This document shows, piece by piece, positions 28,905 to 63,633 of a stretch of DNA of 64,000 bases. Under the pieces are notes generated by a model. It saw only the letters and a list, made by a program, of their open reading frames with translations, was not told the origin of the DNA and ran no database searches. Origin of the DNA: a virus (Duplodnaviria; Heunggongvirae; Uroviricota; Caudoviricetes); the IMG/VR virus record IMGVR_UViG_3300028800_000057. One strand, written 5' to 3'. The position numbers and the translations under genes were made by a program. Each line of letters starts with the position of its first letter. Position 1 is the first letter of the stretch.

Positions 28905-29489
28905 TTGGTGTACTTCGTACCCATGATTAATGACGAAGTATACATATCAACCGACATTGAGTCGGATGGACCAATCCCGGGCCCTAATTCAATGCTCAGT
29001 CTTGGATCTGCTGCTTACTTACCAGATGGTAAGCGAGTTGGTACCTTCTCAGTCAACTTGGAGACTCTTCCGGGCGCGCAAGGCGACCCAGATACTATGA
29101 AGTAGTGGTCCGAGAGACCAAAGCAATGGGAGGAGTGTCGTAAGAACCAACAGCCACCTAAAGAGGCTCTCATCTCTTTAGGTGGCTGTTGGGTTGGTAA
29201 GATGCCAGGACGTCCTGTGTTCGTCGGGTATCCAGCTACATACGACTTTGCATTTGTTCATTGGTACTTGATCAAGTTCATCGGGTCTAGTGTGTTTAGC
29301 TTCTCGGCGCTTGACATGAAGTCATTTGCTATGGCGATCCTAGGGGCTAACTTCAGAGGTACCACTAAGAAAAATATGCCTAAAGAGTGGCTCACCGGTC
29401 TACCTAAGCACACGCATGTAGCGGTTGATGACGCCATTGAGCAAGGGGTTTTGTTCATTCGTATGCTTAAAGCTTCTAGGGTAAGCTAA
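28905..29489 (+). pseudogene. DEDDh (DnaQ-like) 3'-5' exonuclease interrupted by one in-frame TAG (29103-29105)
   Basis: Exo I ([10 protein letters not shown]) lies in ORF 28905..29105. Exo II (YDFAFV) and Exo III (HVAVDDA) lie in ORF 29202..29489. Both ORFs are in the same frame and the intervening 32 codons are open apart from the single TAG. Confidence 0.5.
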
Positions 29490-30052
29490 TGACTTGCGAG
29501 TGCTACAAGATACATGTTATTCAGAAAAACCCTCTAGGAGGAGTTTACGCTATACACAACACGATTAACCACCATTGCTATATTGGGAGTACCACTGATT
29601 TTAGAAAGAGATTCGACCTCCACCGTCATCTCTTGAGGGGTGGTAAGCACCACTCACCTCACCTTCAGGCAGCTTGGAATAAATATGGTGAGGATTCATT
29701 CGTATTCTTTAGGCTTGCATTCATAGATGACAAGCAACAGAGATTGTTAATAGAGCAGACCCTACTGGATACTCTGTCCCCGAAATACAACGTGTCCCGC
29801 TCGGCAGTGTCTAGTGAGGGCTGTACTCGAAGCCCTGAAACGAGAGCTAAGTTACGTAAAGCAATGCAGGATCCTAGTAGGTTGAAGTTTATTCGTGAGT
29901 TAGGGCTTAAGCCTAAATCGGAAGAACAACGATCTTTGATGGCAGAAGCTCAACGTGGGAGACATCACTCGGATGAGGCTCGTGCAAAGATGAGAGCCTC
30001 CAGTGCTATTCGTTGGGCTAGGGTTGAATCTAAGGGTAAACCTGCAAGGTAA
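29489..30052 (+). CDS. GIY-YIG homing endonuclease with NUMOD3-like C-terminal repeats
   Basis: GVYAIHN...YIGSTTDFRKRF...H...N GIY-YIG core and C-terminal S/RPE.RAK repeats. Confidence 0.7.
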   Translation: MTCECYKIHVIQKNPLGGVYAIHNTINHHCYIGSTTDFRKRFDLHRHLLRGGKHHSPHLQAAWNKYGEDSFVFFRLAFIDDKQQRLLIEQTLLDTLSPKYNVSRSAVSSEGCTRSPETRAKLRKAMQDPSRLKFIRELGLKPKSEEQRSLMAEAQRGRHHSDEARAKMRASSAIRWARVESKGKPAR

Positions 30053-30120: not shown

Positions 30121-31524
30121 ATGTCCTTCAAGTATCAGGCTCAAAAAGTCGGTGACGCCCATTACGTCCTTCCGCGTTGCGGAACGATGAAAGTGGAGGC
30201 GCATGCTTTTATATCAGAACCTCTCTTCGAGGCTTCTGAGGAGCAGCTTTGGAGGCAACTTGCCAGTGGAGCATCCTATGATGGAGTGACTGGTGCTTAT
30301 TTGATGCCTGATTGCCACCCTGGGTTTGGCATTCCGACTGGGTGTGTCCTAATCACGGACAAAACTCTCATCCAAGCTGGGTCAGGGTACGACATCTCTT
30401 GTGGGGTTCTGTACTTGAAAGTCAATCTCTCTGCTAATTCGGTCAGGAGCTGGGATAAGCGGGAGCGGTGGGTTCAGGAGGTCGAGAAGCGGATCTCTAC
30501 GGGGAAGAACTCTTTTGTCCCTAATATGCGTCCATCCTTCAATAGCCGTCAGGTGCAGGACATTCTTCGATACGGTGCCAAGGCTATTGGGGTGCCACGG
30601 GAGCTCTGCGAGCGGCATTACATACCGATTCCGGATGACACTAAGCTTACAAAGATTGATCGTGCCTACTCAAGGGTGCTTCCCCATATAGCTTCTGTTG
30701 GCGGGGGTAACCACTTTGTGGAGATGCAGGTCGACAGGGATACTGGAGAAGTATTCGTCATGATCCATTGCGGATCCCGCGGGTATGGGTGGCATACGGC
30801 AAACCATTACTTTTACGAAGGGGCTAAGCTACGGAACCTCCACCCAGATGCTCGAGAGGATTCCTGGCTTTACATTGACGAACCTCTTGGGCGAGAGTAC
30901 TGGGCATACCATAATTCGGCCGCTAACTTCGCTATCGCCAATAGGCATCTGATTGTACGTGGGATTCAAGAGTCAATTCAGGAGGTCTTCAACACAGACT
31001 CTGAAGTTTACTACGAGATCTCTCACAACTTGGTCCAAGAGGAAACCCTGGTACTTCCGGATGGTACTACGAAGAAGGGGTTCGTTCACCGGAAGGGTGC
31101 AACCCGAGCATTCCCAGCTGGTCACCCGGAACTGATCGGGACCCGCTGGGAGAAGACCGGCCACCCATGTCTAATACCGGGATCAATGATGGATGGAGCT
31201 GCTATCCTGTTTGCTGAACCAGGGGCCTACCAAACTGCTTGCTCAGTGAATCATGGATCTGGTAGAAAGATGGCTCGTGGTGAAGCCAAGAGGAAGTTGG
31301 AGCCCGAGCAGCTCCGGATTGACGATGAGATGAGGACCGTCAAGCGCGAGTTTGCTGGAGTGTCCATTGAGGGTATTGTTGGAAACCACCAGCACACGCC
31401 ATTGGATGAATGCGAGCACGTGTACAAGGACCTCGATGAGGTCTTGGATGTTCTTGAGGCAAACAAGATCGCGAAGGTTGCCCATCGATTGTATCCTGTA
31501 GCTAATATTAAGGGAAGCGACTGA
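30121..31524 (+). CDS. rtcB: RtcB RNA ligase (3'-phosphate/5'-OH)
   Basis: Conserved RtcB blocks, including HCGSRGYGWHTANHY and NHGSGR, with Cys/His metal ligands. 467 aa. Confidence 0.85.
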   Translation: MSFKYQAQKVGDAHYVLPRCGTMKVEAHAFISEPLFEASEEQLWRQLASGASYDGVTGAYLMPDCHPGFGIPTGCVLITDKTLIQAGSGYDISCGVLYLKVNLSANSVRSWDKRERWVQEVEKRISTGKNSFVPNMRPSFNSRQVQDILRYGAKAIGVPRELCERHYIPIPDDTKLTKIDRAYSRVLPHIASVGGGNHFVEMQVDRDTGEVFVMIHCGSRGYGWHTANHYFYEGAKLRNLHPDAREDSWLYIDEPLGREYWAYHNSAANFAIANRHLIVRGIQESIQEVFNTDSEVYYEISHNLVQEETLVLPDGTTKKGFVHRKGATRAFPAGHPELIGTRWEKTGHPCLIPGSMMDGAAILFAEPGAYQTACSVNHGSGRKMARGEAKRKLEPEQLRIDDEMRTVKREFAGVSIEGIVGNHQHTPLDECEHVYKDLDEVLDVLEANKIAKVAHRLYPVANIKGSD

Positions 31525-31525
31525 A

Positions 31526-32062
31526 ATGGACGAGAAGACCTTAGTCAAGAAGAGCAGGCACCTGAGTAAGGTTCTCCGTCATGAACCGGATTCAGTAGGT
31601 ATTACGCTCACTGAAGCCGGTTGGGCTCCAATATCGTCTATTCTTTCGGCCTTGAACCTCAAGCGAGAAGAACTCAACCAAGTCGTAGCAGAGAACAACA
31701 AGAATCGATTCGAGTTCTCCGAGAACGGGATGTTCATCCGAGCTCGTCAAGGGCACTCAGTAGAAGTGGATCTGGGGTACCCAGAGGCTACCCCACCGGA
31801 TACTCTCTACCATGGTACTTCACGTCAAACAGTATCGGTGGTTCTTCGAGATGGCATCAAGAAGATGCTTCGACACCATGTGCACATGTCACCGGATCTC
31901 GAGACAGCTAAGGTTGTGGCCTCGCGCCGGTCCGACCCAAAAATCCTTAAGGTTGATTCTAAGTCCATGTCAGCTGCAGGGATCAAGTTCTACCTAACAG
32001 GTAATGGTGTATGGTTGACTGATTATGTCGACCCAAAGTACGTCAGCGAGTACCACTCCTGA
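31526..32062 (+). CDS. kptA: Tpt1/KptA RNA 2'-phosphotransferase
   Basis: LSKVLRHEP...GWAPI...RARQGHS...HGTS pattern typical of KptA. 178 aa. Confidence 0.75.
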   Translation: MDEKTLVKKSRHLSKVLRHEPDSVGITLTEAGWAPISSILSALNLKREELNQVVAENNKNRFEFSENGMFIRARQGHSVEVDLGYPEATPPDTLYHGTSRQTVSVVLRDGIKKMLRHHVHMSPDLETAKVVASRRSDPKILKVDSKSMSAAGIKFYLTGNGVWLTDYVDPKYVSEYHS

Positions 32063-32624
32063 GATTTATGGTAAGAACTCGAAGCCACAAGGGGTGACCC
32101 CTTCTGTTGTACTGATCAATCCTAAGTTTCCGCATAATGTTGGAGCCGCCTTACGGGCGGCTTCTTGTTATGGAGCCAAGCAAGTTTGGTTCACAGGGGA
32201 TCGAGTGGAGCTTGGTCTCAAAGGGTCGAAGCGTCTTCCTCGTGAAGAGCGTATGAAGGGGTACAGGGACGTCGAGCTTCGACATTATGACCGGGTATTT
32301 GATCAGTTCGAGGATGTAGTACCGGTAGCGGTAGAGCTACGACCGAACTCCGAGAGCCTTCCTCAGTTTGATCACCCGAAGAACGCCATCTACTTATTTG
32401 GTCCTGAGGATGGCTCTATCCCGCAGATGTACCTGCAGCATTGCCATAGATTCGTGGTCATACCCACACGACATTGCGTGAATCTAGCGGCTGCTGTCTA
32501 CACTGTCCTCTATGATCGTCAATGCAAATTGTGTCCTGATATCACTATCCAAGACAGCCTAGCTGAACAACGATTCGACTTTCCGGAGAACGTTGAGTTA
32601 GCTACCTACCTCGGATTGGGTTGA
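32025..32624 (+). CDS. SpoU/TrmH-family RNA 2'-O-ribose methyltransferase
   Basis: SpoU motifs HNVGAALRAA, LFGPEDGSIP and IPTRHCVNLAAAVYTVLY. Confidence 0.6.
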   Translation: MSTQSTSASTTPEIYGKNSKPQGVTPSVVLINPKFPHNVGAALRAASCYGAKQVWFTGDRVELGLKGSKRLPREERMKGYRDVELRHYDRVFDQFEDVVPVAVELRPNSESLPQFDHPKNAIYLFGPEDGSIPQMYLQHCHRFVVIPTRHCVNLAAAVYTVLYDRQCKLCPDITIQDSLAEQRFDFPENVELATYLGLG

Positions 32625-52739: not shown

Positions 52740-54002
52740 ATGAAGATTCAAATCAATTTCAACTTGGCCGATATCATTGAGGCCCTTGACATAGTGTCGG
52801 CTGTAGTTCCGCACCAGACTACTAACGAAGCCGCAGGGTACCTTTTCGTTGTGAGCGGCAAGGAGTGCTACTTGTACTCCAGTGGAGATAATTGTGTTGC
52901 TAGGGCCAAGTTCGACTTGATTGATTCGAGTGGTGACGGGGCTTTTGTATTCCCAGCAGTTAATCTGAGTAACTCATTGCGTCCACTAGCCAAGGAGGAA
53001 GAGACTTGTATCATCGAAGCCTCTTCAGATGAGGATGGTCGCCACCTGGTCAAGTATATGACAAGCCCGGATGGGGCTGAGGCTGAGTTCGGTAGCTACG
53101 CCCCTGATAGCATCTCCCGGTACGATGATGACCTAGCGGCTGCTACTGAGACCTATGAGTACAACCCGTCGATCTTGAAGGAGGCAATCAGCCTTGCTCG
53201 GGTTTTCATGGCCGATAAGATTGACCAGAGTGTGTCCGAAGCGTTCCGAGGTGTCGAGGTTATCGACAAGACTCGGCTTGAGAAAGGGGACGGCTACCTG
53301 TACGCTACTGATCGGTACATAGCCTACTACTTCAAGAGCGACCACTTTGTTGGTAAGAGATTGGCTATTCATGCTACGCACATACCAGCATTCTTGAGTT
53401 TCCTTAGTAAGTGCGACAGTGGTAGTGTGGTTGCCATCAAGATCAATGGTAACCTTACCTTTGCAGTCAGTTCCAAAGGGGACGTCTTTGGTTGGAGCAA
53501 GATTGGGGACCTGCACGACAAGTTCATCCACCACAACCTCAAGATGGACTCATTGGTGGTTCGGGTTAACAAGGCCCGTTTCCTACATGCTTTGGAGTCA
53601 TCCAAAGGAGCCTTGAAGGAAAAGGATGACAGCATCGTATTCAACTACGACGCGAAGACCAGCAAGATTTGGTTCAATGTCACCACCTCGAAGTCCAAGT
53701 CAATCAAGATTGAGGCTACTCCTGTTGTCGATACTGAAGAGGGTACTACGGCTTCCACGGCTGACTCTTTCTCCGCCTCTGTGAGTATTAGGCAGCTCAC
53801 CGAGCTAATTCAGAATATGAAGGGCTATGATGTCACCTTTCGCGGGTACATCGGGAAGCCCAAGGCGGGGACGAAAGCGCTCAATCTGTTCAGGACCATT
53901 GACGAATTCTTCCTGAGTTCTGCAGATGGCAAGGTCACTACATCCCAAGAGGACTCTATTCCGTGTCGAATAACGAGGTTCATGTCCTCTCTGACGAAGT
54001 AG
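52740..54002 (+). CDS. putative sliding clamp (DnaN-like)
   Basis: N-terminal MKIQINFNLADIIEALDIVSAVVP resembles beta-clamp N-termini. 420 aa. It sits beside clamp-loader genes. Weak. Confidence 0.35.
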   Translation: MKIQINFNLADIIEALDIVSAVVPHQTTNEAAGYLFVVSGKECYLYSSGDNCVARAKFDLIDSSGDGAFVFPAVNLSNSLRPLAKEEETCIIEASSDEDGRHLVKYMTSPDGAEAEFGSYAPDSISRYDDDLAAATETYEYNPSILKEAISLARVFMADKIDQSVSEAFRGVEVIDKTRLEKGDGYLYATDRYIAYYFKSDHFVGKRLAIHATHIPAFLSFLSKCDSGSVVAIKINGNLTFAVSSKGDVFGWSKIGDLHDKFIHHNLKMDSLVVRVNKARFLHALESSKGALKEKDDSIVFNYDAKTSKIWFNVTTSKSKSIKIEATPVVDTEEGTTASTADSFSASVSIRQLTELIQNMKGYDVTFRGYIGKPKAGTKALNLFRTIDEFFLSSADGKVTTSQEDSIPCRITRFMSSLTK

Positions 54003-54670: not shown

Positions 54671-55196
54671 GGTAGAGACGAGAGTCAGGGAGTTGGTTTG
54701 TGCAGAACTTGACCGTAGGGTGGCCATGGCCTCAGAAAGGCTACCAACCAGATGTGTCAACAACTACCGGCATCCTCTCGATACTCGGAAGAAGCTTGAG
54801 GGGGAATCCAACCCTGAGTATAACCGAATTACTGACAAGCTCGGGTTGCCGGTGATCCAGACTATTGGTTTCTGCATGCTAGGTTGCAGTGACCCCGAGA
54901 ATTGGGAGGGGACAATCTGCGAGGAGCCCATTGATGCCAAGAAGTGCAAGGACTTCAAGGCGGCTCGGGGCAAGGCAGACATCCTTCCTGAACTGTCCCA
55001 GGACTTGAAGAGCACCTCTTGGGTTGAGGAGAACCTCCCGGAGCTGTTCTCACTGTTATGGGTTCTCGGGGCGGTTCAAGAGATCAAGTTCCCGTGGTGG
55101 AAGTTGGTTTGGTTCTGGTTCTGCAGGGTTCGGTTGGAACCGGTAATCCCAAAGATCGATACCTCGAAGCTGCTACCGCCCCCGATTGACTCATGA
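54654..55196 (+). CDS. hypothetical protein
   Basis: 180-aa ORF. Confidence 0.4.
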   Translation: MKTKSEVETRVRELVCAELDRRVAMASERLPTRCVNNYRHPLDTRKKLEGESNPEYNRITDKLGLPVIQTIGFCMLGCSDPENWEGTICEEPIDAKKCKDFKAARGKADILPELSQDLKSTSWVEENLPELFSLLWVLGAVQEIKFPWWKLVWFWFCRVRLEPVIPKIDTSKLLPPPIDS

Positions 55197-55774
55197 GCTT
55201 TTCGATCTTCTCCTACATACTCGTAGCCGAACGTCTTCGCCCGCGAGCTGACTCTGGAGCTGGGTTCTCGGTACCAGCCCTCTCTGAGAGGGGTGTGGCT
55301 GATGGTCTGGACCCGATCCTTGTGACTAATGCCCGTAGGGAGTTCAAGGTTACGCGCAAGAACAGAGAGGGTATGGCTCGCTTCGGATTCTCCTTTTGCA
55401 CCTTGGAGGAGGAGCCAGCGCTCCTGGGAGACCTAATTCGACAGGTTGTGAGTCTGTCTATCCAAAGTAGTTGGGCAAATCGCTTTGGATCAGTCGGGGA
55501 GGCTGTTGAATCCATGCAGGCATCTCGATTCAAGCCGAAGAACCTAGTTCTACCTAAGGGCGTGGTCAGTCGTTTCACCGATGAAAACGGTGTGCAACAC
55601 GGCAATGTTGAGGGGATTCAACTCTTGTCAACTGACCTGCCAGCTAAATGTGCAATTCTTGTGGCCGATGCACCAGCCTTAGGTGTCTATACAAGGGTGG
55701 GAGACTACATCGGTCTTCAACTATACAATGTAGACAAGACTTTGGCGGTAATCGAGTCTCATGAATTGGGCTGA
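55193..55774 (+). CDS. hypothetical protein
   Basis: 193-aa ORF. Confidence 0.4.
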   Translation: MSFSIFSYILVAERLRPRADSGAGFSVPALSERGVADGLDPILVTNARREFKVTRKNREGMARFGFSFCTLEEEPALLGDLIRQVVSLSIQSSWANRFGSVGEAVESMQASRFKPKNLVLPKGVVSRFTDENGVQHGNVEGIQLLSTDLPAKCAILVADAPALGVYTRVGDYIGLQLYNVDKTLAVIESHELG

Positions 55775-56459
55775 TGATCTAGTTGAGTGCGCGCAAGGTA
55801 ACTTGGACGACAGGGTCAAGGATGCCTTGTATGGGCGTGGGGTGTCTCCAGAGCAGATAGTGGGGTTCAAGCTTGGGTATCTGAATGGGGTACTGCCCGC
55901 TGGAGTCGATCCTGAGTTCAGTCAGTGGGCGCACCGGGGAGAGAAGCTGAAGGACTCCTATGTCCTTCCGTTGACCAACGCTCTCGGGACGGTGACTGGG
56001 TTCCAATTCAGATCTGTTGATCAGTCGAACAAGGGGTATCTAGACTACTTCTTGGTACGTGATGAGTTGGTACTCTTTGGGTTGGGTCAGGCTATCCCTC
56101 ATATCTGGACTACTGGATCTATATGCATTGTGGAAGGTGCTTTCGATTTATTTCCTACCCAGAGGGTACTTCCATACACGGTTAGCACAATCACAGCTAA
56201 GGTTACTGAACAACTACTGAGGTGGTTGTTTCGGCTTGTGCATAAGGTGTACATGTTCTACGATGCAGACTCAACTGGAAGATCTGCTTGCAGAGAATTC
56301 AACAATGAGTATCGCTCGGACTTCAGTCACCTTCAGATTCTAGACTACCCGCGCGGTGTCACCCTAAGTGGTAAGCCAGTAAAGGATCCGGCAAACCTTT
56401 GGGAAGCTTGGGGTGACGACCCATTCAAGTCCTACATCATGAATCAGATTAGGGAGTAG
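55761..56459 (+). CDS. TOPRIM-domain protein (primase-like)
   Basis: CIVEGAFD (Toprim Glu) and FYDADSTG (DxD). No zinc-binding domain. Confidence 0.45.
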   Translation: MNWADDLVECAQGNLDDRVKDALYGRGVSPEQIVGFKLGYLNGVLPAGVDPEFSQWAHRGEKLKDSYVLPLTNALGTVTGFQFRSVDQSNKGYLDYFLVRDELVLFGLGQAIPHIWTTGSICIVEGAFDLFPTQRVLPYTVSTITAKVTEQLLRWLFRLVHKVYMFYDADSTGRSACREFNNEYRSDFSHLQILDYPRGVTLSGKPVKDPANLWEAWGDDPFKSYIMNQIRE

Positions 56460-56461
56460 CT

Positions 56462-56956
56462 ATGCCTCAAACCTACGAAGAAGCTCAGGCGGTTCAAACT
56501 ATCGCTGAGAGCTTAATTGGTACACATCATCCAGAGTTAGCCGAAGCCAGCTTCAGGTACATATTCAAGGAGAAGTGCAGCAAGAAGGGTGGAAAGCCCG
56601 TTCTTGGTACGGTTAAGAAGATGAGCGACCTGCAGAAGTTCCTCGTCGCTGGTGAACCAGATTTTTTGATGGAGATACCCCTCGATGTTTGGAATGAGTT
56701 GGATGCAGCTCGCCGAACCGCGCTAGTCGATCACTTACTCGAGTGTTGCACCGGTGAAGAGGATGAGCAGACGGCTGCAATGAAGTGGAAGACACGGGAG
56801 CCCGATGTCTACGAGTTCAGTTCTATCCTTCGACGGCATGGCGCTTGGACCGAGGACTTATCCAACTTTGCAATTGTAGCTCAATCGCTTGACCTCAGTT
56901 TCATGACTGCCGAGAGTGAAGAGGATAACGAGCTTCAAACGGCTGCCAACGAATAA
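56462..56956 (+). CDS. hypothetical protein
   Basis: 164-aa ORF. Confidence 0.4.
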   Translation: MPQTYEEAQAVQTIAESLIGTHHPELAEASFRYIFKEKCSKKGGKPVLGTVKKMSDLQKFLVAGEPDFLMEIPLDVWNELDAARRTALVDHLLECCTGEEDEQTAAMKWKTREPDVYEFSSILRRHGAWTEDLSNFAIVAQSLDLSFMTAESEEDNELQTAANE

Positions 56957-56968
56957 AGGTCATAAAAA

Positions 56969-58405
56969 GTGTGGGATACCACGTATAGGCCTTTGACCTT
57001 TGCAGATGTGCTAGGTCAAGAGGGAACCGTTCAACTACTCAAAGCTCGTCTCAGGAATGGGACCGCGCTGGACACTAGTTACATCTTCAGTGGTGGTAGT
57101 GGTCAGGGAAAGACGACTCTGGCTCGCATCTACGCTAGGGCGATGCTCTGTGAGAACGTAGGTAAGAACAACCCTGAGCCATGCAATCAATGCGAGAGTT
57201 GCAGGTCTATCCTGAACGACTCCTCAATGGCTTTTTCTGAGCAAGACGCAGCTAGCCAGGGTGGAATTGATCAGATTCGAAGGATAGTAGATAGCCTCCC
57301 CTTCTCGGTAGTGGGGGCTTCAAAGAGAATCTACCTCTTTGACGAGTGCCATCGGATGTCTAAGGATGCTCAGGACGTCCTACTCAAGCCGCTGGAAGAG
57401 CGCAAGATGATTGGGATGTTTTGCACCACGGAACCTGAAAAGGTTCGTGGTGCTATCCGATCTCGATGTGAAGAGTATGGGATTAGAAAGGTTACGCGCG
57501 AAGACATCCTAGTTCGGATGAGGCGTATCCTAGAAGCAGAGAAGGTAGAGTTCGATGACGATGGTATCCTAACGGTTATTGACTACGCCGGTGGTCATGT
57601 CCGTGACGTGGTGAGTCGTCTTGAGATGATCGCTCAGGTTGGGCCGGTCACTCTGGACAACGTTCGAGAGCACCTCAATCTGTCTGTGATCTCCACTTAT
57701 TACCACATACTACTCAACTTAACCTCTGACACCAAGAAGGCGCTCCAGCTTGTTGACCAAGCTTGTGAGAGAATGACCGCTGAGGAGGTAGTATCGGGTC
57801 TCTCGGAGGCCGCTATGAACTCTTTCCGGTTAGCAAACGGGATGGGAGCGGACTTCTCTTTCACAGATAAGTTACTGGCTGTAGAGGTCTATAAGCTCTA
57901 CGGTGTTGAGCTGATCAAGATCGCAAGCCACTTCTTGAGGTCCAGGTACGTAACTCAAGTTGGACTGATTTGTGATCTAACTGCACTGGCGTTCTCTGGG
58001 GTGAAGGGATCTTTCATCTCAGCTCAGCCTGTGTCGCAAGGTTCAGTCCTACAAGTATCTGCCCCCGTGGCTACTCAAGCTCCGGTGAGTACACTAGCTC
58101 CAACACCAAAGCCCGCTGAGACGTCGAGCCCACCACCAGTGGTAGAGGCTCAGCAGTCACCTGAGGAGCCCCCAAGTAGCAAGCAAATGCCTAGTGGCGA
58201 TATGCCTATCGGTAATTTGGGCTCTGATGATCCTCGGGCAATGACCATCTACGACACACAGGTCATCCCAGAAGCAAACCCTGGTAAGAGAAAGAAACTG
58301 AATCTAACGCCTAACGAAACCAGTACAAGCGATAGGGACTTAATTAGTCACGAAGCTTGGCGCCGAGGGTTCGCTGAACTCTGGAGTAGAGGGGGAAATG
58401 CCTGA
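56969..58405 (+). CDS. dnaX: DnaX-like clamp-loader ATPase (tau/gamma)
   Basis: GGSGQGKTTLARIYA, Zn module CNQCESCRS, LFDECHRM and SRCEEY (SRC), and a Pro/Ser-rich C-terminal linker. Confidence 0.75.
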   Translation: MWDTTYRPLTFADVLGQEGTVQLLKARLRNGTALDTSYIFSGGSGQGKTTLARIYARAMLCENVGKNNPEPCNQCESCRSILNDSSMAFSEQDAASQGGIDQIRRIVDSLPFSVVGASKRIYLFDECHRMSKDAQDVLLKPLEERKMIGMFCTTEPEKVRGAIRSRCEEYGIRKVTREDILVRMRRILEAEKVEFDDDGILTVIDYAGGHVRDVVSRLEMIAQVGPVTLDNVREHLNLSVISTYYHILLNLTSDTKKALQLVDQACERMTAEEVVSGLSEAAMNSFRLANGMGADFSFTDKLLAVEVYKLYGVELIKIASHFLRSRYVTQVGLICDLTALAFSGVKGSFISAQPVSQGSVLQVSAPVATQAPVSTLAPTPKPAETSSPPPVVEAQQSPEEPPSSKQMPSGDMPIGNLGSDDPRAMTIYDTQVIPEANPGKRKKLNLTPNETSTSDRDLISHEAWRRGFAELWSRGGNA

Positions 58406-60248
58406 GTGGGTTGTCCTAGAGTTAAGCCCTCAAGGTGAGGATGAGGACCCAGAGGTCCTCAGAAAAGCTGTTGGAAAATCTATCAAGAGCTTGAAGGATG
58501 TATTTGTACCAGCCTCAACCATCACACGCGGGCATTCTAGGTCAGTTTACAAGTTAATTGAGAACTACATCTTCGTTAGACGTACACAACCTGACCCCGT
58601 ATACTTCAAGTTGGAGGGTTCCAAGTATATTACCTCAATCCTGACAGTGTATGATCATCGGATTCGTAGGATATCGGCGGTGCCTGATAGCTCCATCGAA
58701 CAGATGCGCCTTCAGCTTCACATTGAGACTGAACAAGGGATTGAGGTAGGCGACGAAGTCTTGGTCATGAGTGGGGCCTACAGCGGGATTGTTGGCAAGG
58801 TAATTGAGAACATCCCTGAGAATAACTCCGTTCAAGTATTCGTTAAGCTCAGGTCGAAGCAGGCGCTGATCACACTACCTCGGAGCTTTTTGAAGTATGT
58901 CTCTAATACCGAAGACCAGCAGTACAACTCCCCGTTCCTAACTAAGTTGTTCAGGATTAAGCAGTGGATTGATCGTGCCAAGGCTCCGAATAAGTATTTG
59001 GTTAGTTCCGAAAAACCCTTACAAGCTAAGTATGACAGGTACCTAAGAATCACCTCGTGGCTTGATACTTTTAGAAGAGCCAGGAAGTTACTAGTAGACC
59101 CAGTGGCACCTGAGATGTTCACGGGATCCGATAGCGAGCCTCTGCTGAAAAAGTTTCATCAAGTTCAGCAAATGAACTCATTCATATCAAGGTCAGGGTT
59201 TTTCTTCTACTTACCTCTGATTCAATTGCCAGAGGTCTCACAACTAGCCAACTCTTCAGCTGCACTAGACCTACTCGACAGCTTCATAGCTAGATACTCA
59301 CAGATTCACAGTGATTGTGACCAACTTGAGAGGTCACTACCAGATTGGAACCCAGATATGGCTAACAACATCGTGTTCGACGGGCATAATCTAGCTTATA
59401 GGGTTGTCAATGCTCTAAGGAACATCCCTGATCAGCTAACCGATAGTGAGGGCAGATCAACTGCACTAGTATTTGGGTTCTTGCGTAGCTTAGCTGCACT
59501 CAAGAAGCGTTTTGAGAGAGCTAATATGTATGTTGTATGGGATGGCTCTAAGCAGCGTAGGGTTGACATGTATCCAGACTACAAGGCAGGCAGGCCAGAG
59601 CATAGTCAGGGTACACACGATGAGATGTCACGACTTCAGTCTATGCTTCCAATGTTTGGCATCTCACAAGTCCATAATCCAGACGAGGAAACAGACGATA
59701 TTATCGCTTGTTTACTGAAGAACAAGCTAAAAGGTAAACACAACATAATCATCTCTACAGACCGTGACTTCCTACAGTTGGTTACATACACTGACTTACT
59801 TTTAGTACCAAAGCAAGGAAGTCGACCTGAGACCCTTTACGACCCCGATAGAGTTGTGTCAGAGTATGGGGTCCCGCCCCGGTTGATGGTTCACCTCAGA
59901 GCACTCTCAGGTGACACATCGGACAATCTGCCCGGGGTCCCAAGAGTACCTCGTAAGATCCTGGCGTCCCTTCTAACAACGCACGGATCGATCGATGGGG
60001 TCTACGCTTCAAGCTTAGCCGGGGTCACCAAGACTCAGTACGACAAGATCCGAGGCTTTGAGAAACAAGCCCGATTAAATGTGGAACTTATGGCTCTTAG
60101 AACGGACCTAGACTACCAGATTACGGAGGCAGCTCCGAACTTTGATAGCGCTTTCGACGCTCTAAAGCAGTGTTCCATTCAACCTGAGATCTTGATTTCA
60201 ACCTTCTTCCAGACCCCTGTTGGGGCTGGGTTCACCAAGAATAGCTGA
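58398..60248 (+). CDS. fusion protein: NusG-like NGN/KOW N-terminus + FEN / 5'-3' exonuclease C-terminus
   Basis: N-terminal WVVLELS...GDEVLVMSGAYSGIVGKVIE...VQVFVKL (KOW). C-terminal VVWDGSKQRRVDMYPDYKAGR, ISTDRDFLQLV and LSGDTSDNLPGVPRV (5' nuclease motifs). Confidence 0.65.
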   Translation: MPEWVVLELSPQGEDEDPEVLRKAVGKSIKSLKDVFVPASTITRGHSRSVYKLIENYIFVRRTQPDPVYFKLEGSKYITSILTVYDHRIRRISAVPDSSIEQMRLQLHIETEQGIEVGDEVLVMSGAYSGIVGKVIENIPENNSVQVFVKLRSKQALITLPRSFLKYVSNTEDQQYNSPFLTKLFRIKQWIDRAKAPNKYLVSSEKPLQAKYDRYLRITSWLDTFRRARKLLVDPVAPEMFTGSDSEPLLKKFHQVQQMNSFISRSGFFFYLPLIQLPEVSQLANSSAALDLLDSFIARYSQIHSDCDQLERSLPDWNPDMANNIVFDGHNLAYRVVNALRNIPDQLTDSEGRSTALVFGFLRSLAALKKRFERANMYVVWDGSKQRRVDMYPDYKAGRPEHSQGTHDEMSRLQSMLPMFGISQVHNPDEETDDIIACLLKNKLKGKHNIIISTDRDFLQLVTYTDLLLVPKQGSRPETLYDPDRVVSEYGVPPRLMVHLRALSGDTSDNLPGVPRVPRKILASLLTTHGSIDGVYASSLAGVTKTQYDKIRGFEKQARLNVELMALRTDLDYQITEAAPNFDSAFDALKQCSIQPEILISTFFQTPVGAGFTKNS

Positions 60249-60254
60249 GGTATT

Positions 60255-60896
60255 ATGGGTAGCGCTGGCTTTACGATCTCGGTTGACCCTGCAGAGTTGG
60301 CAAACCGTTTTGCATCGCCAGAGCCGCTATTCGACGAACCAATTGAGGAAGTGGATGAGGAGCAGGTTGTCTCTATCCTATCCTCGTTGCACTTCGAAAC
60401 GCAGGTCAAACCTCTCCTCGACAGGATACCAGACAGGGAAGCTGACCTGATTGAGTTGTACTACATACAGAAGAAACGTCAGGCAGACATAGCCGAGATC
60501 TTCGATGTAACTCAGGCGGCAATCAGCTATCGATTGGATCGGGGCCTTCAAAGGATCAAGTTCTTGCTATCAATACCTCAGATCACCGAGAGCGAGATGC
60601 GGTATAACCTACCATTTGTACCTCTCAAGCCAATTGATGTTGATATATTGGTTGGCATGTGGAAGACCACTTGCCAGAGTGAAGTAGCAATGCAGCTAGA
60701 GCTTACTCAGGGTCGAGTGAGACATCGTTTCTTTGGGGCGGTGAAGCTACTTGAGCGAAAGGCCACTGAGGACACAACATTTGAGCCTCTATTCAAGGTG
60801 TTCTCATCCATTGCTAGTAAGAACTTCAACATACTTAGAGCAGTGAAACTCCCTCAATGGGAAAATCGTGGCGGCGACGAGTTGTCCGGGTTGTGA
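60255..60896 (+). CDS. sigma-70-family-like transcription factor (region 4 HTH)
   Basis: RQADIAEIFDVTQAAISYRLDRGLQRIKFL resembles a sigma region 4.2 HTH. Confidence 0.5.
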   Translation: MGSAGFTISVDPAELANRFASPEPLFDEPIEEVDEEQVVSILSSLHFETQVKPLLDRIPDREADLIELYYIQKKRQADIAEIFDVTQAAISYRLDRGLQRIKFLLSIPQITESEMRYNLPFVPLKPIDVDILVGMWKTTCQSEVAMQLELTQGRVRHRFFGAVKLLERKATEDTTFEPLFKVFSSIASKNFNILRAVKLPQWENRGGDELSGL

Positions 60897-60942
60897 CTCG
60901 ATTGAGCATTTACTTGTACGCTTGGCAGTTTAGAGGACTGCC

Positions 60943-61848
60943 TTGCCACCTGTACAGAACCTCCGATTCCAAGACTACCAGTTCGAGTATGCGGTACCAG
61001 CCGGTAAGTGGTATTGGACAACTCGAGTTGATGTATCTCAGTCAGTCCCCGCCTATCAGGTTAGGGACATCAAGTCTCCCTATGGGTTGCTAAGGGATTC
61101 AATCCCAATCCTAGGTGAGGTCATCCAAGCGATGGCAGATAGCATCGTTGAGTTGAAGTCCAACTTCGCTCCGAGCATCCTCATCGGACCCCCCGCGTCG
61201 CTCGTGTTCGAGGTTGACGAAGGTCGAGGCTACTCTGATCCTCAGTCGGCTCTCATTACCAACCAAGGAGTGTTCGGTTCAATCCTAGGTGCTAGCCTTA
61301 CAGTATCAGCACCATTCGTTCGAGTGAGCCCCTCCATGGTTGGTGGGTTGGCTATCAACGAGAGTGGTAGCTTCACGGTTGAAGTAGATTCAACTGGGTT
61401 ATTGGCCGCCAATAGTCCGTACCCAGAGTCAATCATAGTTCAAGACCCAACGGCTACCAACAACCCGCAGACGGTCCCTGTGCTAATCAACGTTCGCCCT
61501 AGAGCGCTGATAACCTCGAGCGACACCGTAGTCATCTTCAATGTAGTTCGTCCCCTCAACGGTCAGTATCCGCTGGTCCCGCAGCAGACTTTCAGTATTG
61601 GGAACATGGGACCCCCAGGCTCAGTTCTTGAATATGACATTCGGGCTATCACCGGCCTATGCGGGAACTGGTTGCGGAGTTGGCTACCCTCTGAGGGGAC
61701 ACTTCAGGCCACCGAAGGTGAGTTGATCACGGTTACAGTCCAACCACCTACTGGGATGTTGCAGGGGACTTACTCAGAAAAGCTGCGCATTATTGGTTAT
61801 AGCTCCAACAACTACATAGACGTTGAGATTCGTCTTGTAATTACGTGA
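60943..61848 (+). CDS. hypothetical protein
   Basis: 301-aa ORF. Confidence 0.45.
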   Translation: MPPVQNLRFQDYQFEYAVPAGKWYWTTRVDVSQSVPAYQVRDIKSPYGLLRDSIPILGEVIQAMADSIVELKSNFAPSILIGPPASLVFEVDEGRGYSDPQSALITNQGVFGSILGASLTVSAPFVRVSPSMVGGLAINESGSFTVEVDSTGLLAANSPYPESIIVQDPTATNNPQTVPVLINVRPRALITSSDTVVIFNVVRPLNGQYPLVPQQTFSIGNMGPPGSVLEYDIRAITGLCGNWLRSWLPSEGTLQATEGELITVTVQPPTGMLQGTYSEKLRIIGYSSNNYIDVEIRLVIT

Positions 61849-61855
61849 GGGTAGA

Positions 61856-62122
61856 ATGGCAGACCAAGATTTTGACTTGAGCAGGTTTGAGGTACAACCC
61901 TCCACGGGGCTGGATGCCTTCTTGGCGAGGAACGCCAATATGGTGACTCCCCTTCGACAGAAGGTAGCTTCAATCAAAGATCTTAGCTCATTTGTTCGTC
62001 TATCTGCTGATGAATTGGTCCACAAGTCCACACGGGACCTGTGGACGATTCGTAGGCAGGGCGACGGCGGCATGTTCGTCGAGAGGACCTTTGACGACAA
62101 CGGTGCGCCTCTTAAGGCCTAA
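61856..62122 (+). CDS. hypothetical protein
   Basis: 88-aa ORF. Confidence 0.35.
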   Translation: MADQDFDLSRFEVQPSTGLDAFLARNANMVTPLRQKVASIKDLSSFVRLSADELVHKSTRDLWTIRRQGDGGMFVERTFDDNGAPLKA

Positions 62123-62133
62123 TCGGAGGAACC

Positions 62134-63633
62134 TTGGACAACCGTGAAAAGGTCAGGGTACTAATTGCTAGGGAAGAGGGCTTGCCCTTACCACCACCAG
62201 CTCAAAAACCAGATGGTTTGGAGGGTGACAGTGGCATTGGCGTTGGTAAGCGTGCAATTCCTCAAGGGCATCAGTTTGATCCTAATGCCCTGAAGCCTCT
62301 AGCTCGAACTCTGTTCGCAGCTTCGGTTGCTCTTGGACACTCCCTAACAGCTTATCGAGAGTTTGCACGCATCAAGTCCGCGAGTATCTCCCCTGATGGC
62401 ATGCTTGGAGGCAAAGGGTATGTTCTAAAGGTCAAAGAAGTCAGATCCCAGCTGCAGCAAGCCTGTGAACTACTGTCTTCAATCACGGATACCTTGCATG
62501 ATGAGGTACACGCCCCTCATTGGCAACCCGATGTCACCATACTCGATGAGACCGAGGCTAATGAAATTGAAGGTTTAATTGAAGAGTCTGATGATGTACT
62601 TCAAGACCCCGAGCAGTATGGGGGTAAAGAAGTTGATGAGGCCGAAAAGGCTCCGAAGACTAAGAAGCTAACTGACCGCATCAAGGATGAGGAGAACAAG
62701 GAGTCCGGTGCTTCTAGGGTCCCAGGTGGTGGTGCTCAGGAGACGAGCGAACCTACCCCTGCTGGTGATGTCTTCAAGGTCAAGCAGGCAAGGGATTGGA
62801 AGGCCCCCTTCATCCAGAGAGTAGCCAACTCCTCGCTACCAGTCAACACTCTTCCAGGTCCTCGTGTCGATCACCTCGAACGAGGTGAGCAGACAGGATC
62901 AGAGGGATCCTATAACAAGGACGAACCTACTGTAAATGACGAGTGGGGAAAGTCTGAGGGTGTGGGAGACGAGTATATTTACACTACTCCTTGGGAGAAT
63001 GACACTAGTCGATCTGCTGGTGCAGTTATTATCTGGGGTAAATCAAACCTACCCTCTGATGATGATACCCATGGTGAGGCTAATGACTTTGGTCTAGGGT
63101 ACGGAGCAAAGGGTCAAGGGTCCGAGGGCTACGGTACAACTAGTCCGGATGGGCGCGGAGTCTACGGTCCTCAGAGTGGGTTACCCAATGACCCAGGCGG
63201 GCTCACGCATGACCCTGAGGGAGGTGCAACCCCCTTTGATGACAAGTTGTCCCCGAATAATGTATGGGCCGCGATAGCTGAGTCAGAACTCCCTTTTGAT
63301 GGCCCAGATCCCGTCGCTCGAAGTGACTACTTTGAGGGCGATAAGGGTAATCAATTCAACGTTCAACATCACGGTACCTCAGGGCTACCGGAGATGAACA
63401 TCCACTCTCCAGAAGCTCCTCTAACTCCTCGACCATCGCATAATCTAGAGCACATGTTCGCCGAGTCTCAGATGCCAGGTGATGGTGGAGTCAACTACGA
63501 TCACTACAGGGACACCACCCCTAACGTGGGTGAGAATACAGAACAACAAGATGTCCCCTACATCAAATGGAAGTCGGATGCTCACGACTACCGTAACGAC
63601 CAACAAGACCTGTACCGAGAAGACTACCACTGA
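62134..63633 (+). CDS. acidic Gly/Pro/Asp-rich, probably disordered protein
   Basis: 499 aa with low complexity and strong acidity. Confidence 0.45.
   Translation: MDNREKVRVLIAREEGLPLPPPAQKPDGLEGDSGIGVGKRAIPQGHQFDPNALKPLARTLFAASVALGHSLTAYREFARIKSASISPDGMLGGKGYVLKVKEVRSQLQQACELLSSITDTLHDEVHAPHWQPDVTILDETEANEIEGLIEESDDVLQDPEQYGGKEVDEAEKAPKTKKLTDRIKDEENKESGASRVPGGGAQETSEPTPAGDVFKVKQARDWKAPFIQRVANSSLPVNTLPGPRVDHLERGEQTGSEGSYNKDEPTVNDEWGKSEGVGDEYIYTTPWENDTSRSAGAVIIWGKSNLPSDDDTHGEANDFGLGYGAKGQGSEGYGTTSPDGRGVYGPQSGLPNDPGGLTHDPEGGATPFDDKLSPNNVWAAIAESELPFDGPDPVARSDYFEGDKGNQFNVQHHGTSGLPEMNIHSPEAPLTPRPSHNLEHMFAESQMPGDGGVNYDHYRDTTPNVGENTEQQDVPYIKWKSDAHDYRNDQQDLYREDYH

What the first reader, a model, noticed from the sequence alone, without database searches (positions are those of the whole stretch)
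58398..60248. NusG-like (NGN + KOW) domain fused to a FEN / 5'-3' exonuclease
One 616-aa ORF joins two parts. The N-terminal roughly 170 aa resemble NusG/Spt5, ending in a KOW motif (GDEVLVMSGAYSGIVGKVIE...VQVFVKL). The C-terminus has canonical Pol I-type 5'-nuclease motifs (VWDG...YKAGR, SxDRDxxQLV, GDTSDNLPGVP). A transcription-elongation-factor-like module attached to a flap endonuclease is not a standard phage replication protein. It could couple Okazaki-fragment or R-loop processing to RNA polymerase or the ribosome.
Basis: partly seen in the sequence, partly recalled or inferred. Interest (0 to 1): 0.65.

Follow-up and report, generated by a model that had tools for sequence, protein, structure and literature searches.

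The report
NusG-like domain fused to flap endonuclease
A large group of giant bacteriophages encodes one protein that joins a module resembling the universal RNA-polymerase-binding factor NusG to an intact DNA-replication flap nuclease, a real, conserved combination we did not find described in the literature we could search, and one that may physically link transcription to the removal of RNA from DNA.

Summary

It is not a sequencing artefact. The same architecture occurs in 71 of 83 related loci, down to about 30% identity, on phage contigs of 100-530 kb. It always sits between a clamp-loader gene and a sigma-70-region-4 gene.

The evolutionary series is visible:
- 60 of 63 loci from sister huge phages have a stand-alone NusG-like gene in that slot.
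- A few loci have a separate FEN gene inserted after it.
- Most of this clade has the two fused through the helical domain.
- At least four lineages are split again, with the helical domain staying on the NusG-like half.

The fusion is essentially absent from cellular genomes (1 mis-binned contig among 185,579 species) and from deposited phage genomes, and was not found in the searchable literature.

Best reading: an RNAP-docked replication-type FEN that removes RNA:DNA hybrids or flaps at the interface of transcription and replication. RNAP binding and the substrate are inferred, not shown. The main rival is two independent functions fused only because the genes were neighbours.

The parts
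58398..60248 (+). Whole NusG-like/FEN fusion gene (616 aa)
58398..58730 (+). NGN-like domain (res 1-111). It contains the invariant L53/Y57/F59 'KLIENYIFV' motif, which aligns to NusG 'KLFPGYVFV'.
58740..58901 (+). KOW beta-barrel (res 115-168) with invariant L151-R152-S153-K154 and P161-R162-S163
58932..59336 (+). Helical middle domain (res 179-313; four long helices). Sequence is variable; W190 and R299 are conserved. No known family or fold match.
59358..59360 (+). Junction codon M321, a relic (and possibly still used) start codon of the formerly separate FEN gene
   Evidence: M in 86/117 and V in 18/117 family members within an otherwise variable stretch. ATG or GTG in 35/38 distinct fused genes, with an SD-like core upstream in 37%, versus 10% for control internal Met codons. 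The window's own junction has no clear SD.
59370..59870 (+). 5'-nuclease catalytic (PIN/resolvase-like) domain, res 325-491. Invariant D328, D382, E431, D433, D434, D455, D457 and arch residues Y395/K396/R399.
   Evidence: PF02739 E 5.8e-31; NCBIfam PolA N-terminus E 8.5e-50; PDB profile hits to Pol I, Taq and FenA; Foldseek; conservation
59871..60128 (+). H3TH/SAM-fold DNA-binding domain of the 5'-nuclease, res 492-577, with invariant D506, S508, D509 (GDxSDN)
   Evidence: PF01367 E 1.3e-15
60177..60209 (+). C-terminal conserved motif I-Q/N-P-E/D-x-I/L-L/I-x-x-F-F (res 594-604). It is a candidate clamp-binding (PIP-like) peptide or simply the last helix of the FEN fold. Untested.
   Evidence: F603 in 105/117, F604 in 99/117; helix 596-603 in the model
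56969..58405 (+). Clamp-loader gamma/tau-like gene. It overlaps the fusion gene's start by 8 nt and is always immediately upstream.
   Evidence: synteny
60255..60896 (+). Sigma-70 region-4 protein. It is always immediately downstream of the NusG-like gene, in the fused, split and stand-alone forms alike.
   Evidence: Pfam Sigma70_r4 E 3.5e-12; PHROG sigma factor 1e-10; synteny
52740..54002 (+). Sliding-clamp-like gene of the same conserved replisome block
   Evidence: phrog_947 'DNA polymerase processivity factor' E 5.7e-7; conserved in the synteny census
55761..56459 (+). Toprim/DnaG-like primase gene of the same block

Best explanation
The gene encodes a bifunctional core protein of a clade of huge phages.

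SHOWN:
- The N-terminal 170 residues adopt the NGN+KOW architecture of NusG/Spt5/RfaH. They keep the family's most conserved motif ((K)L-x-x-G/N-Y-x-F-V).
- The C-terminal 290 residues are a complete two-metal Pol I-type flap endonuclease / 5'-3' exonuclease.
- The two are joined by a lineage-specific helical domain of about 140 residues.
- The gene lies in an operon-like replisome block (clamp, primase, clamp loader) and is followed by a sigma-region-4 gene.
- Related phages carry the NusG-like gene alone, the two genes side by side, or the fusion.

INFERRED:
- The NGN domain docks on the beta' clamp helices and beta gate loop of the (probably host) RNA polymerase elongation complex. That site is at the upstream fork of the transcription bubble.
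- The KOW domain then lies beside the upstream DNA and the RNA exit.
- The helical arm holds the FEN within reach of the DNA and nascent RNA just behind the polymerase.
- There the nuclease cuts 5' flaps or degrades the RNA strand of RNA:DNA hybrids. These could be R-loops, or transcripts left annealed or used as primers when a replisome catches up with RNAP.
- This would be useful on a genome of about 440 kb whose genes are almost all co-oriented.
- The same FEN is probably also the phage's Okazaki primer-removal nuclease. Free FEN may additionally be made from the retained internal start codon.
For: Domain identity.

Both halves are under equal purifying selection (top-residue frequency NGN 0.60, KOW 0.71, FEN 0.65-0.66) and all FEN carboxylates are invariant.

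The fusion is conserved in 71 of 83 loci across deep divergence on 100-530 kb phage contigs.

When the genes are split, they stay adjacent and are usually translationally coupled. One lineage has a 25-nt gap instead.

The helical domain stays with the NusG-like half and is found only where a FEN is adjacent or fused. It is absent from the 60 stand-alone loci with no FEN in the slot. This suggests an adaptor rather than an accidental read-through.

NGN motif L53/Y57/F59 is invariant and aligns to NusG 'FPGYVFV'. NGN domains of all three domains of life bind the clamp helices and gate loop at the upstream fork, with KOW near the upstream DNA (papers PMC7819879; 10.1101/324400).

The constant partner gene is a sigma-r4 protein. 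One contig carries the same NGN-KOW subtype fused to a sigma-70 r2+r4 protein.

Nearly all window genes are on one strand, with monotonic GC skew. There are no terminator-like sites across the block.
Against: No direct evidence of RNAP binding exists.

The NGN Pfam score of this protein is just below the gathering cutoff. NCBIfam scores are far below the NusG, RfaH, LoaP and UpxY cutoffs.

The KOW partner loop differs from NusG.

Most related phages have the NusG-like gene without any FEN next to it (60/63 loci). So its ancestral role does not need the nuclease.

Separate and split forms are viable.

The retained start codon and SD-like signal at the junction suggest that free FEN may be what matters for replication.

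The sigma fusion is a singleton.

The inter-domain geometry of the model is not confident (pTM 0.55).
Confidence: 0.45

Rival explanations
1. Two independent functions in one polypeptide. A phage NusG-like elongation or antitermination factor (working with the adjacent sigma-like protein) and the replicative primer-removal FEN became fused only because their genes were neighbours in one operon. The fusion gives co-expression, not mechanistic coupling.
For: The ancestral slot holds the NusG-like gene alone in 60/63 sister loci and in LR745208.1. FEN appears as a separate inserted gene in L160-L164 and three others. Fission has recurred. The junction keeps ATG or GTG in 35/38 genes, with SD-like signals as frequent as at true starts. 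So free FEN could be produced.
Against: A simple stop-codon loss does not explain a helical domain of about 140 residues between the halves that occurs only with FEN. The fused state dominates (71/83 loci) and persists to about 30% identity. Split forms keep tight adjacency, usually with translational coupling, as expected for interacting partners.
Confidence: 0.28
2. The NGN-KOW module has been repurposed. It does not bind RNAP but tethers the FEN, and in other phages acts alone, on the replisome or on nucleic acid (clamp loader, clamp, primase, or DNA/RNA through the basic KOW patch). The protein would then be a replisome-anchored Okazaki-maturation nuclease.
For: The gene is always directly downstream of, and usually overlapping, the clamp-loader gene inside a replisome block. 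The KOW carries an invariant basic L-R-S-K / P-R-S patch unlike NusG. Scores against NusG family models are weak. A C-terminal ILxxFF motif might bind a clamp.
Against: All best structural matches of the NGN part are RNAP-bound factors. The RNAP-contact motif is invariant. The other constant neighbour is a sigma-region-4 protein. I recall no NGN domain that binds anything other than RNAP, but I did not check this.
Confidence: 0.15
3. A torpedo-like termination or RNA-decay factor. The RNAP-docked 5'-3' exonuclease degrades nascent RNA from a 5' end to dislodge RNAP. This would be analogous to Xrn2/Rat1 working with Spt5 in eukaryotes, or FttA with Spt5 in archaea.
Against: The nuclease is a Pol I-type FEN, closest to FenA, Xni and the Taq 5'-nuclease. 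From general knowledge, these act on duplex or flap substrates rather than processively on single-stranded RNA. The gene context is replication, not RNA decay.
Confidence: 0.05
4. Artefact: two genes joined by a sequencing or assembly error (missed stop or frameshift).
For: Split versions of the locus exist. One locus (L103) looks frameshifted.
Against: An identical protein occurs on 10 contigs from several samples. More than 100 full-length homologues were found. 71 independently assembled loci carry one uninterrupted ORF.
Confidence: 0.01

Closest known systems
Bacterial NusG and its specialised paralogues (RfaH, LoaP, UpxY)
   Same: NGN + single KOW architecture. The conserved 'GY-x-FV' motif is shared. 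The best sequence and structure matches are to these proteins. Like RfaH, LoaP and UpxY, it is an accessory, element-encoded paralogue sitting beside the genes it may serve.
   Different: It scores far below every curated family cutoff. The KOW loop that aligns to NusG 'IFGR' (recalled as the S10/Rho-binding loop) is replaced by invariant L-R-S-K. It carries a helical domain and an enzymatic nuclease domain at the C-terminus. The NusG review and paper searches used here describe no such NusG-family member.
Stand-alone phage NusG-like proteins (PHROG 6386 'transcription antiterminator'; huge-phage NGN-KOW proteins of 165-190 aa)
   Same: They are direct relatives: E 1e-22 to 1e-32 against the N-terminal profile, and 32-47% identity in NGN-KOW. 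They occupy the same genomic slot between clamp loader and sigma-r4 gene. BFVD holds phage proteins of this fold.
   Different: They lack the helical domain and the FEN. None has been characterised as far as the searchable literature shows.
Pol I 5'-nuclease domain / stand-alone bacterial FENs (FenA, Xni/ExoIX, ExoR) and phage FENs (T5 D15, T4 RNase H)
   Same: Both Pfam domains are above cutoff and all carboxylates of both metal sites, the arch K/R and the H3TH motif are present. Foldseek TM about 0.77-0.83 normalised to the target. The replication-module context matches that of phage FENs.
   Different: None of these carries an N-terminal NGN-KOW module. Scores are below the NCBIfam equivalog cutoffs for Xni and the 5'-3' exonucleases. 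Deposited phage genomes match only the FEN half.
Spt5-dependent recruitment of nucleases to RNA polymerase (Xrn2/Rat1 with Spt5 in eukaryotes; FttA with Spt4/5 in archaea)
   Same: The logic is the same: a NusG/Spt5-family factor positions a nuclease on the elongation complex (PMC11695829 and PMC11616081, listed).
   Different: Those interactions are non-covalent, the nucleases act on nascent RNA, and the purpose is termination. Here the link is covalent and the nuclease is a DNA-replication-type FEN. This is an analogy, not homology of the system.
T4 replication-coupled late transcription (sliding clamp gp45 with gp55 sigma and gp33)
   Same: Clamp, clamp loader and sigma-like genes, with an RNAP-binding accessory protein linking replication proteins to transcription. 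This comparison is recalled from general knowledge, not tested here.
   Different: There is no homology between gp33 and NGN-KOW and no nuclease is involved in T4. Clamp binding by this protein is only a guess from a C-terminal ILxxFF motif.

Membership tests
NusG/Spt5 superfamily (NGN + KOW) | NGN alpha/beta fold | tested here: met
NusG/Spt5 superfamily (NGN + KOW) | KOW motif / five-stranded beta-barrel following the NGN | tested here: met
NusG/Spt5 superfamily (NGN + KOW) | Significant sequence similarity to NusG over both domains | tested here: met
   Family profile versus 2lq8: E 4.2e-8, positions 7-162 against 10-168. Broader phage NGN-KOW profile: 2lq8 at 3e-9, 8ehq_G at 2e-7, E. coli NusG 2jvv at 2.9e-4. 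Single-sequence Pfam NGN is 21.2 bits, just under the 22.2 cutoff.
NusG/Spt5 superfamily (NGN + KOW) | Conserved RNAP (beta' clamp-helix) contact motif 'FPGYVFV' | tested here: met
   L53, Y57 and F59 are invariant or nearly so in 117 fusions and 44 NGN-KOW proteins. They align to 'KLFPGYVFV' of T. maritima NusG. That this motif forms the clamp-helix pocket is from general knowledge.
NusG/Spt5 superfamily (NGN + KOW) | Binding to the RNAP elongation complex | not testable with these tools
   Needs biochemistry or complex prediction. No multimer prediction was available.
Housekeeping NusG (TIGR00922 equivalog) | Score above the curated equivalog cutoff | tested here: not met
   29.4 bits versus 135.7 for the N-terminal fragment. 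It is a distant paralogue, not a NusG orthologue.
Housekeeping NusG (TIGR00922 equivalog) | KOW loop (I-F-G-R) used for S10 and Rho binding | tested here: not met
   The aligned positions are invariant L151-R152-S153-K154. The role of this loop in S10/Rho binding is from general knowledge.
RfaH / LoaP / UpxY specialised paralogues | Score above the curated NCBIfam cutoffs | tested here: not met
   UpxY 32.5 versus 100; LoaP 25.4 versus 125; RfaH 16.1 versus 144.5.
Pol I-type 5'-3' exonuclease / FEN (PF02739 + PF01367) | Both Pfam domains above the gathering score | tested here: met
   107.8 bits versus 34.3, and 58.1 bits versus 40.
Pol I-type 5'-3' exonuclease / FEN (PF02739 + PF01367) | Full set of metal-binding carboxylates | tested here: met
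   D328, D382, E431, D433, D434, D455, D457, D506 and D509 are 99-100% conserved in 117 sequences.
Pol I-type 5'-3' exonuclease / FEN (PF02739 + PF01367) | Helical-arch basic residues (YKxxR) and H3TH GDxSDN motif | tested here: met
   Y395, K396, R399, G505, D506, S508 and D509 are invariant or nearly so.
Pol I-type 5'-3' exonuclease / FEN (PF02739 + PF01367) | FEN fold | tested here: met
   Foldseek: FenA 6c33 E 3.4e-18 with TMt 0.77; Xni TMt 0.83; also Taq and T5 FEN. pLDDT about 96.
Pol I-type 5'-3' exonuclease / FEN (PF02739 + PF01367) | Flap endonuclease / 5'-3' exonuclease activity | not testable with these tools
   Requires an enzyme assay.
Xni / stand-alone 5'-3' exonuclease equivalogs (NCBIfam) | Score above the curated cutoffs | tested here: not met
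   Xni 98.3 versus 261. PRK14976 models 97.6-111.6 versus 305-434. The best similarity is to the N-terminus of DNA polymerase I (170 bits, local match only).

The most novel reading that the evidence does not exclude
Huge phages encode a dedicated enzyme that is covalently docked on RNA polymerase through a NusG-like domain. It carries a replication-type 5'-nuclease to the DNA/RNA just behind the polymerase. This would be a co-transcriptional system for removing R-loops or transcript-derived primers, and a viral, covalent counterpart of Spt5-recruited nucleases. Its function would be to let a replisome pass through, or restart from, heavily transcribed co-oriented DNA. The helical domain would act as the arm or FEN-docking adaptor, and in split lineages the two proteins would form the same complex non-covalently.
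Probability: 0.3. Interest if true: 0.8.

Novelty: new variant of a known kind. Interest (0 to 1): 0.6.

Why it matters
NusG/Spt5 is the only transcription factor conserved in all life. Its known bacterial paralogues all act by recruiting other proteins through the KOW domain. In the NusG review and paper searches used here, none is described with an enzyme attached.

A conserved NusG-like module joined to an intact flap endonuclease in hundreds of huge-phage genomes gives a concrete, testable handle on an open question. How do very large, densely and unidirectionally transcribed viral genomes reconcile transcription with replication, including R-loops, transcript-primed restart and primer removal?

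Nature has also supplied the controls: stand-alone, side-by-side, split and fused forms in the same genomic slot. Comparative and genetic experiments can use these directly.

The work also defines a widespread, uncharacterised family of phage NusG-like proteins. They are always paired with a sigma-region-4 protein inside the replisome gene block, which hints at replication-linked control of phage transcription.

Tried and rejected
- **Sequencing or assembly artefact:** rejected. 71 uninterrupted fused ORFs in independent assemblies, and the identical protein on 10 contigs.
- **afdb50 fold search** for the same architecture: library unavailable.
- **The search for related loci with the broad NGN-KOW alignment A3:** Replaced by A2 and A4.
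- **More sigma–NGN-KOW fusions:** none found. P0182 stays a singleton and is treated as anecdotal.
- **P0187 (NGN-KOW plus extension):** it lies in an unrelated context with a CI-repressor-like domain, so it says nothing about the helical domain.
- **Internal promoter or terminator between the halves or around the gene:** promoter-like sites are no more frequent than in shuffles, and there are no terminator-like sites.
- **Ribosome (S10) coupling:** judged unlikely from the KOW loop.
- **Canonical PIP box or beta-clamp motif at the C-terminus:** the spacing does not fit. It is kept only as a lead.
- **Literature searches** for the fusion and the NusG review: nothing found.


Full report
**1. 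The observation**

The ORF at 58398-60248 (+ strand, ATG start, 616 aa) is present exactly as described, and all the quoted motifs are in it.

The C-terminal half is a Pol I-type 5'-nuclease:
- Pfam 5_3_exonuc_N at residues 325-491 (E 5.8e-31) and the H3TH/SAM-fold 5_3_exonuc domain at 492-577 (E 1.3e-15).
- NCBIfam finds the N-terminus of DNA polymerase I as the best local match (E 8.5e-50).

The N-terminal half is NusG-like:
- Pfam KOW at 117-148 is above its cutoff. The NusG NGN model at 4-104 scores 21.2 bits, one bit under its cutoff.
- NCBIfam gives full-length NGN+KOW matches of the N-terminal 181 aa to UpxY (8e-8), NusG (6e-7, residues 4-159), LoaP (1e-5) and RfaH (8e-3). All are far below those families' curated cutoffs.
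- PHROGs places the N-terminus in phrog_6386, 'transcription antiterminator'.

**2. Family-level and structural confirmation**

A search of 5.8 billion proteins returned 176 homologues. More than 100 are full-length at 37-87% identity, and many sit on contigs of 200-512 kb. JGI's automatic pipeline had labelled several '5'-3' exonuclease/transcription antitermination factor NusG'.

In an alignment of 117 full-length members, the NGN (top-residue frequency 0.60), KOW (0.71) and the two FEN domains (0.66, 0.65) are equally constrained. Residues 171-320 are variable (0.35).

Every FEN carboxylate is 99-100% conserved: D328, D382, E431, D433, D434, D455, D457, D506 and D509. So are the arch residues Y395/K396/R399. 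The nuclease should therefore be active.

A profile of the family matches solved NusG (2lq8) over both domains at E 4e-8. The printed alignment puts the family's invariant L53-x-x-x-Y57-x-F59-V on NusG's 'KLFPGYVFV'.

AlphaFold2 models are confident: mean pLDDT 86.8 for the full length and 82.9 for residues 1-321. They show:
- an NGN alpha/beta domain (1-111);
- a five-stranded KOW barrel (117-168);
- four long helices (179-313);
- the FEN (324-603).

**3. What kind of genome this is**

The window carries 37 tRNA genes and a tmRNA. Genes are almost all on the + strand and the GC skew rises steadily.

It holds a replication/recombination block:
- class II RNR, NAD-ligase, RecD2, RecA, SbcCD and a PD-(D/E)XK nuclease;
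- a beta-clamp-like protein and a Toprim primase;
- a phage metallopeptidase;
- clamp-loader gamma/tau, delta and delta' subunits.

The identical protein lies on ten contigs, the longest over 200 kb (one search lists 443 kb for the cluster). This is a 'huge phage'. No RNAP, DNA polymerase, second FEN or second NusG is in the 64 kb.

The fusion gene overlaps the clamp-loader gene by 8 nt. A sigma-70 region-4 protein follows 6 nt later (Pfam E 3.5e-12; PHROG 'RNA polymerase sigma factor' 1e-10). There are no terminator-like sites across 55-62.2 kb, against 6.1 expected.

**4. Distribution and evolutionary series**

*Exhaustive profile search.* Searching 1.84 billion representatives with residues 1-321 found 420 proteins at E <= 1e-3. 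Classified with my own domain HMMs, they fall into:
- NGN-KOW-helical-FEN fusions;
- stand-alone NGN-KOW proteins of 165-190 aa (E 1e-22 to 1e-32; 32-47% identical to the fusions in NGN-KOW);
- NGN-KOW-helical proteins of about 300-320 aa;
- a few other architectures.

*Genomic contexts of the fusion clade*. Of 83 loci found with the fusion's N-terminus:
- 71 are fused.
- At least four lineages are split into an NGN-KOW-helical protein and a separate FEN. These are L089/L090/L136, L091, L108 and L238. The first three have overlapping or ATGA-type junctions; L238 has a 25-nt gap.
- Five divergent loci (L160-L164) have a ~205-aa NGN-KOW gene followed directly by a separate FEN gene with no helical domain.
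- One locus (L008) has no FEN at all.

*Sister group.* In 63 loci carrying stand-alone NGN-KOW genes, 60 read clamp loader - NGN-KOW - sigma-r4 with no FEN, and 3 have a FEN inserted.

*Constant flanks.* In essentially every locus with flanks, the clamp loader is immediately upstream and the sigma-r4 gene immediately downstream.

*Inferred order of events.* The NusG-like gene, paired with the sigma-like gene, is the old core element. A FEN gene was inserted after it. The two were then joined, with acquisition of the helical domain, and were occasionally separated again. The split proteins are nested among fused ones (P0145 is 73% identical to fused P0133 in NGN-KOW). The helical domain is seen only where a FEN is fused or adjacent.

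*The junction.* It keeps a Met (86/117) or Val (18/117) in an otherwise variable stretch. In 38 distinct fused genes the codon is ATG or GTG in 35. An SD-like core lies upstream in 37%, compared with 46% at the genes' true starts and 10% at control internal Met codons (Fisher p 7e-5). This is a relic of the FEN gene's own start and may still give free FEN. The window's own junction has no clear SD.

**5. Where it is not found**

- Among one genome for each of 185,579 bacterial and archaeal species, only one locus matches full-length. It is a 127-kb contig with the same phage synteny, binned into a MAG. All other hits are the 5'-nuclease domain of cellular Pol I at 27-35% identity.
- In 50,697 deposited phage records, no match covers more than the FEN half. 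The only relative of the NGN-KOW part is the stand-alone form in the unannotated 485-kb record LR745208.1.
- BFVD contains phage NusG/RfaH-like proteins of 173-241 aa but no fusion among the top matches.
- No paper in the searchable library mentions the fusion. A dedicated NusG review does not mention any exonuclease or fused forms.
- Cluster members carry no curated names.

**6. How it most likely works**

*Established for the family.* NGN domains from all domains of life bind the clamp helices of the largest RNAP subunit and the gate loop of the second largest. They cover the non-template strand and the upstream fork of the bubble. The KOW of RfaH and KOW1 of Spt5 sit next to the upstream DNA and the RNA exit channel (PMC7819879; 10.1101/324400).

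*Shown here.* The fold, the invariant contact motif, a sigma-like partner gene, and an intact FEN held on a helical arm C-terminal to the KOW.

*Inferred.* The protein docks on elongating (probably host) RNAP and places a flap/5'-3' nuclease next to the DNA and nascent RNA just behind the polymerase. Pol I-type 5'-nucleases remove RNA primers and cut 5' flaps (general knowledge). The natural substrates in that position would be:
- R-loops;
- transcripts left annealed after a replisome meets RNAP;
- transcripts used as primers. The replisome using mRNA as a primer after a co-directional collision is recalled from Pomerantz and O'Donnell 2008 and was not checked here.

The near-complete co-orientation of genes makes co-directional encounters the expected conflict. 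The replisome context implies the same FEN also matures Okazaki fragments.

*Confidence.* I put about 0.45 on this RNAP-docked-FEN reading as a whole. The domain identification itself I regard as near certain.

**7. Rivals**

(a) *Independent functions fused because the genes were neighbours (0.28).* Supported by the ancestral stand-alone state, the viable separate and split forms, and the retained start signal. Weakened by the dominance and depth of the fused state, by the FEN-specific helical domain, and by the tight coupling kept after fission.

(b) *A repurposed NGN-KOW that anchors to the replisome or to nucleic acid rather than RNAP (0.15).* Supported by the constant clamp-loader neighbour, the basic KOW patch (invariant L-R-S-K and P-R-S in place of NusG's I-F-G-R) and the weak family scores. 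Weakened by the RNAP-type motif and the sigma-like neighbour.

(c) *A torpedo-like RNA exonuclease, analogous to Xrn2-Spt5 or FttA-Spt5 (0.05).*

(d) *Artefact (0.01).* Refuted.

One contig encodes the same NGN-KOW subtype (48% identical) fused behind a sigma-70 region 2 + region 4 protein through a Lys/Pro-rich linker. That favours an RNAP link, but it is a singleton.

**8. Comparison with what is known, and novelty**

The protein works like a NusG paralogue carrying an effector, and like a Pol I-type FEN. It is a member of the NusG/Spt5 superfamily by fold, motif and profile similarity. It is not an orthologue of NusG, RfaH, LoaP or UpxY, because every curated cutoff is missed and the KOW partner loop is not conserved.

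It is a member of the PF02739/PF01367 5'-nuclease family. It does not reach the curated cutoffs of the Xni or stand-alone 5'-3' exonuclease equivalogs.

The combination, with its helical domain, is a new variant of known kinds. Automated pipelines have seen it, but it is undescribed and uncharacterised.

I score interest 0.6. It is real, widespread in huge phages and mechanistically suggestive, and it comes with natural controls. But its function is inferred, and a neighbour-fusion explanation is not excluded.

Noticed in passing
window 130-26094: An array of 37 tRNA genes covering most anticodon families, plus a tmRNA (25748-26094, tag ANDNAIAAAA). This translation toolkit is typical of huge phages.
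   Followed up: no
window 15178-17225: A serine recombinase (MerR-HTH + Resolvase, 207 aa) is followed, with a 4-nt overlap, by a 475-aa TnpB/Cas12f-like protein. This IS607-type element is inserted within the tRNA region.
   Followed up: no
window 9590-10144 and 30121-32624: RNA-repair gene set: a HAD domain of 'Swiss-army-knife' RNA repair proteins, RtcB ligase (E 7e-84), Tpt1/KptA 2'-phosphotransferase and a SpoU methylase. This suggests tRNA repair against host anticodon nucleases.
   Followed up: no
window 249-935, 4406-5125 (-), 26192-26755, 29489-30052: Four free-standing homing-endonuclease-like genes (three HNH, one GIY-YIG) are scattered among the tRNA and RNA-repair genes.
   Followed up: no
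window 60255-60896 and all related loci: The sigma-like protein has its region-4 HTH in the N-terminal half (residues 54-102) and no detectable region 2. It is the invariable downstream partner of the NusG-like gene in fused, split and stand-alone forms, across about 150 loci. It may form a functional pair with the NusG-like protein.
   Followed up: partly
L007 3612-5237 (protein P0182): A single 18-kb contig encodes a sigma-70 region 2 + region 4 protein. It is joined through a repeated Lys/Pro-rich linker to the same subtype of NGN-KOW (48% identical to the FEN fusions). No second example was found.
   Followed up: yes
proteins P0250, P0253 (N-terminal) and P0191, P0196, P0202 (C-terminal extensions): Other members of the phage NGN-KOW family carry extra domains sharing a 'G-x-W-G-L-T-x-x-G-V' motif (possibly winged-helix-like), at either end. 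P0187 (L239) carries a CI-repressor-like domain. The NGN-KOW module seems to be a reusable docking unit.
   Followed up: partly
L009 8125-10041 and L238 3156-4970: In two lineages the phage metallopeptidase and the clamp-loader subunit, separate genes in the window (56462-56956 and 56969-58405), are fused into one ORF of about 600 aa.
   Followed up: no
L003 1-941 and L005 1-1077: The SbcD-like phosphoesterase upstream is about 700-735 aa instead of 324 aa, with a faint LAGLIDADG hit. This may be an intein or homing-endonuclease insertion.
   Followed up: no
window 60177-60209 (residues 594-604): A conserved C-terminal motif I-Q/N-P-E/D-x-I/L-L/I-x-x-F-F is followed in many members by G-F-x-K. 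It resembles, but does not fit, a PIP box. It could be a clamp-binding peptide or just the last FEN helix.
   Followed up: partly
window 55000-62200: There are no intrinsic-terminator-like sites in 7.2 kb, against a mean of 6.1 in shuffles. This is consistent with a long read-through operon, or with selection against terminators in a block that encodes a NusG-like factor.
   Followed up: no
L103 9983-12023: In this 448-kb contig the FEN part lies in a different frame, overlapping the NGN-KOW-helical ORF by about 160 nt. It could be a sequencing frameshift, a pseudogene or a programmed frameshift.
   Followed up: no
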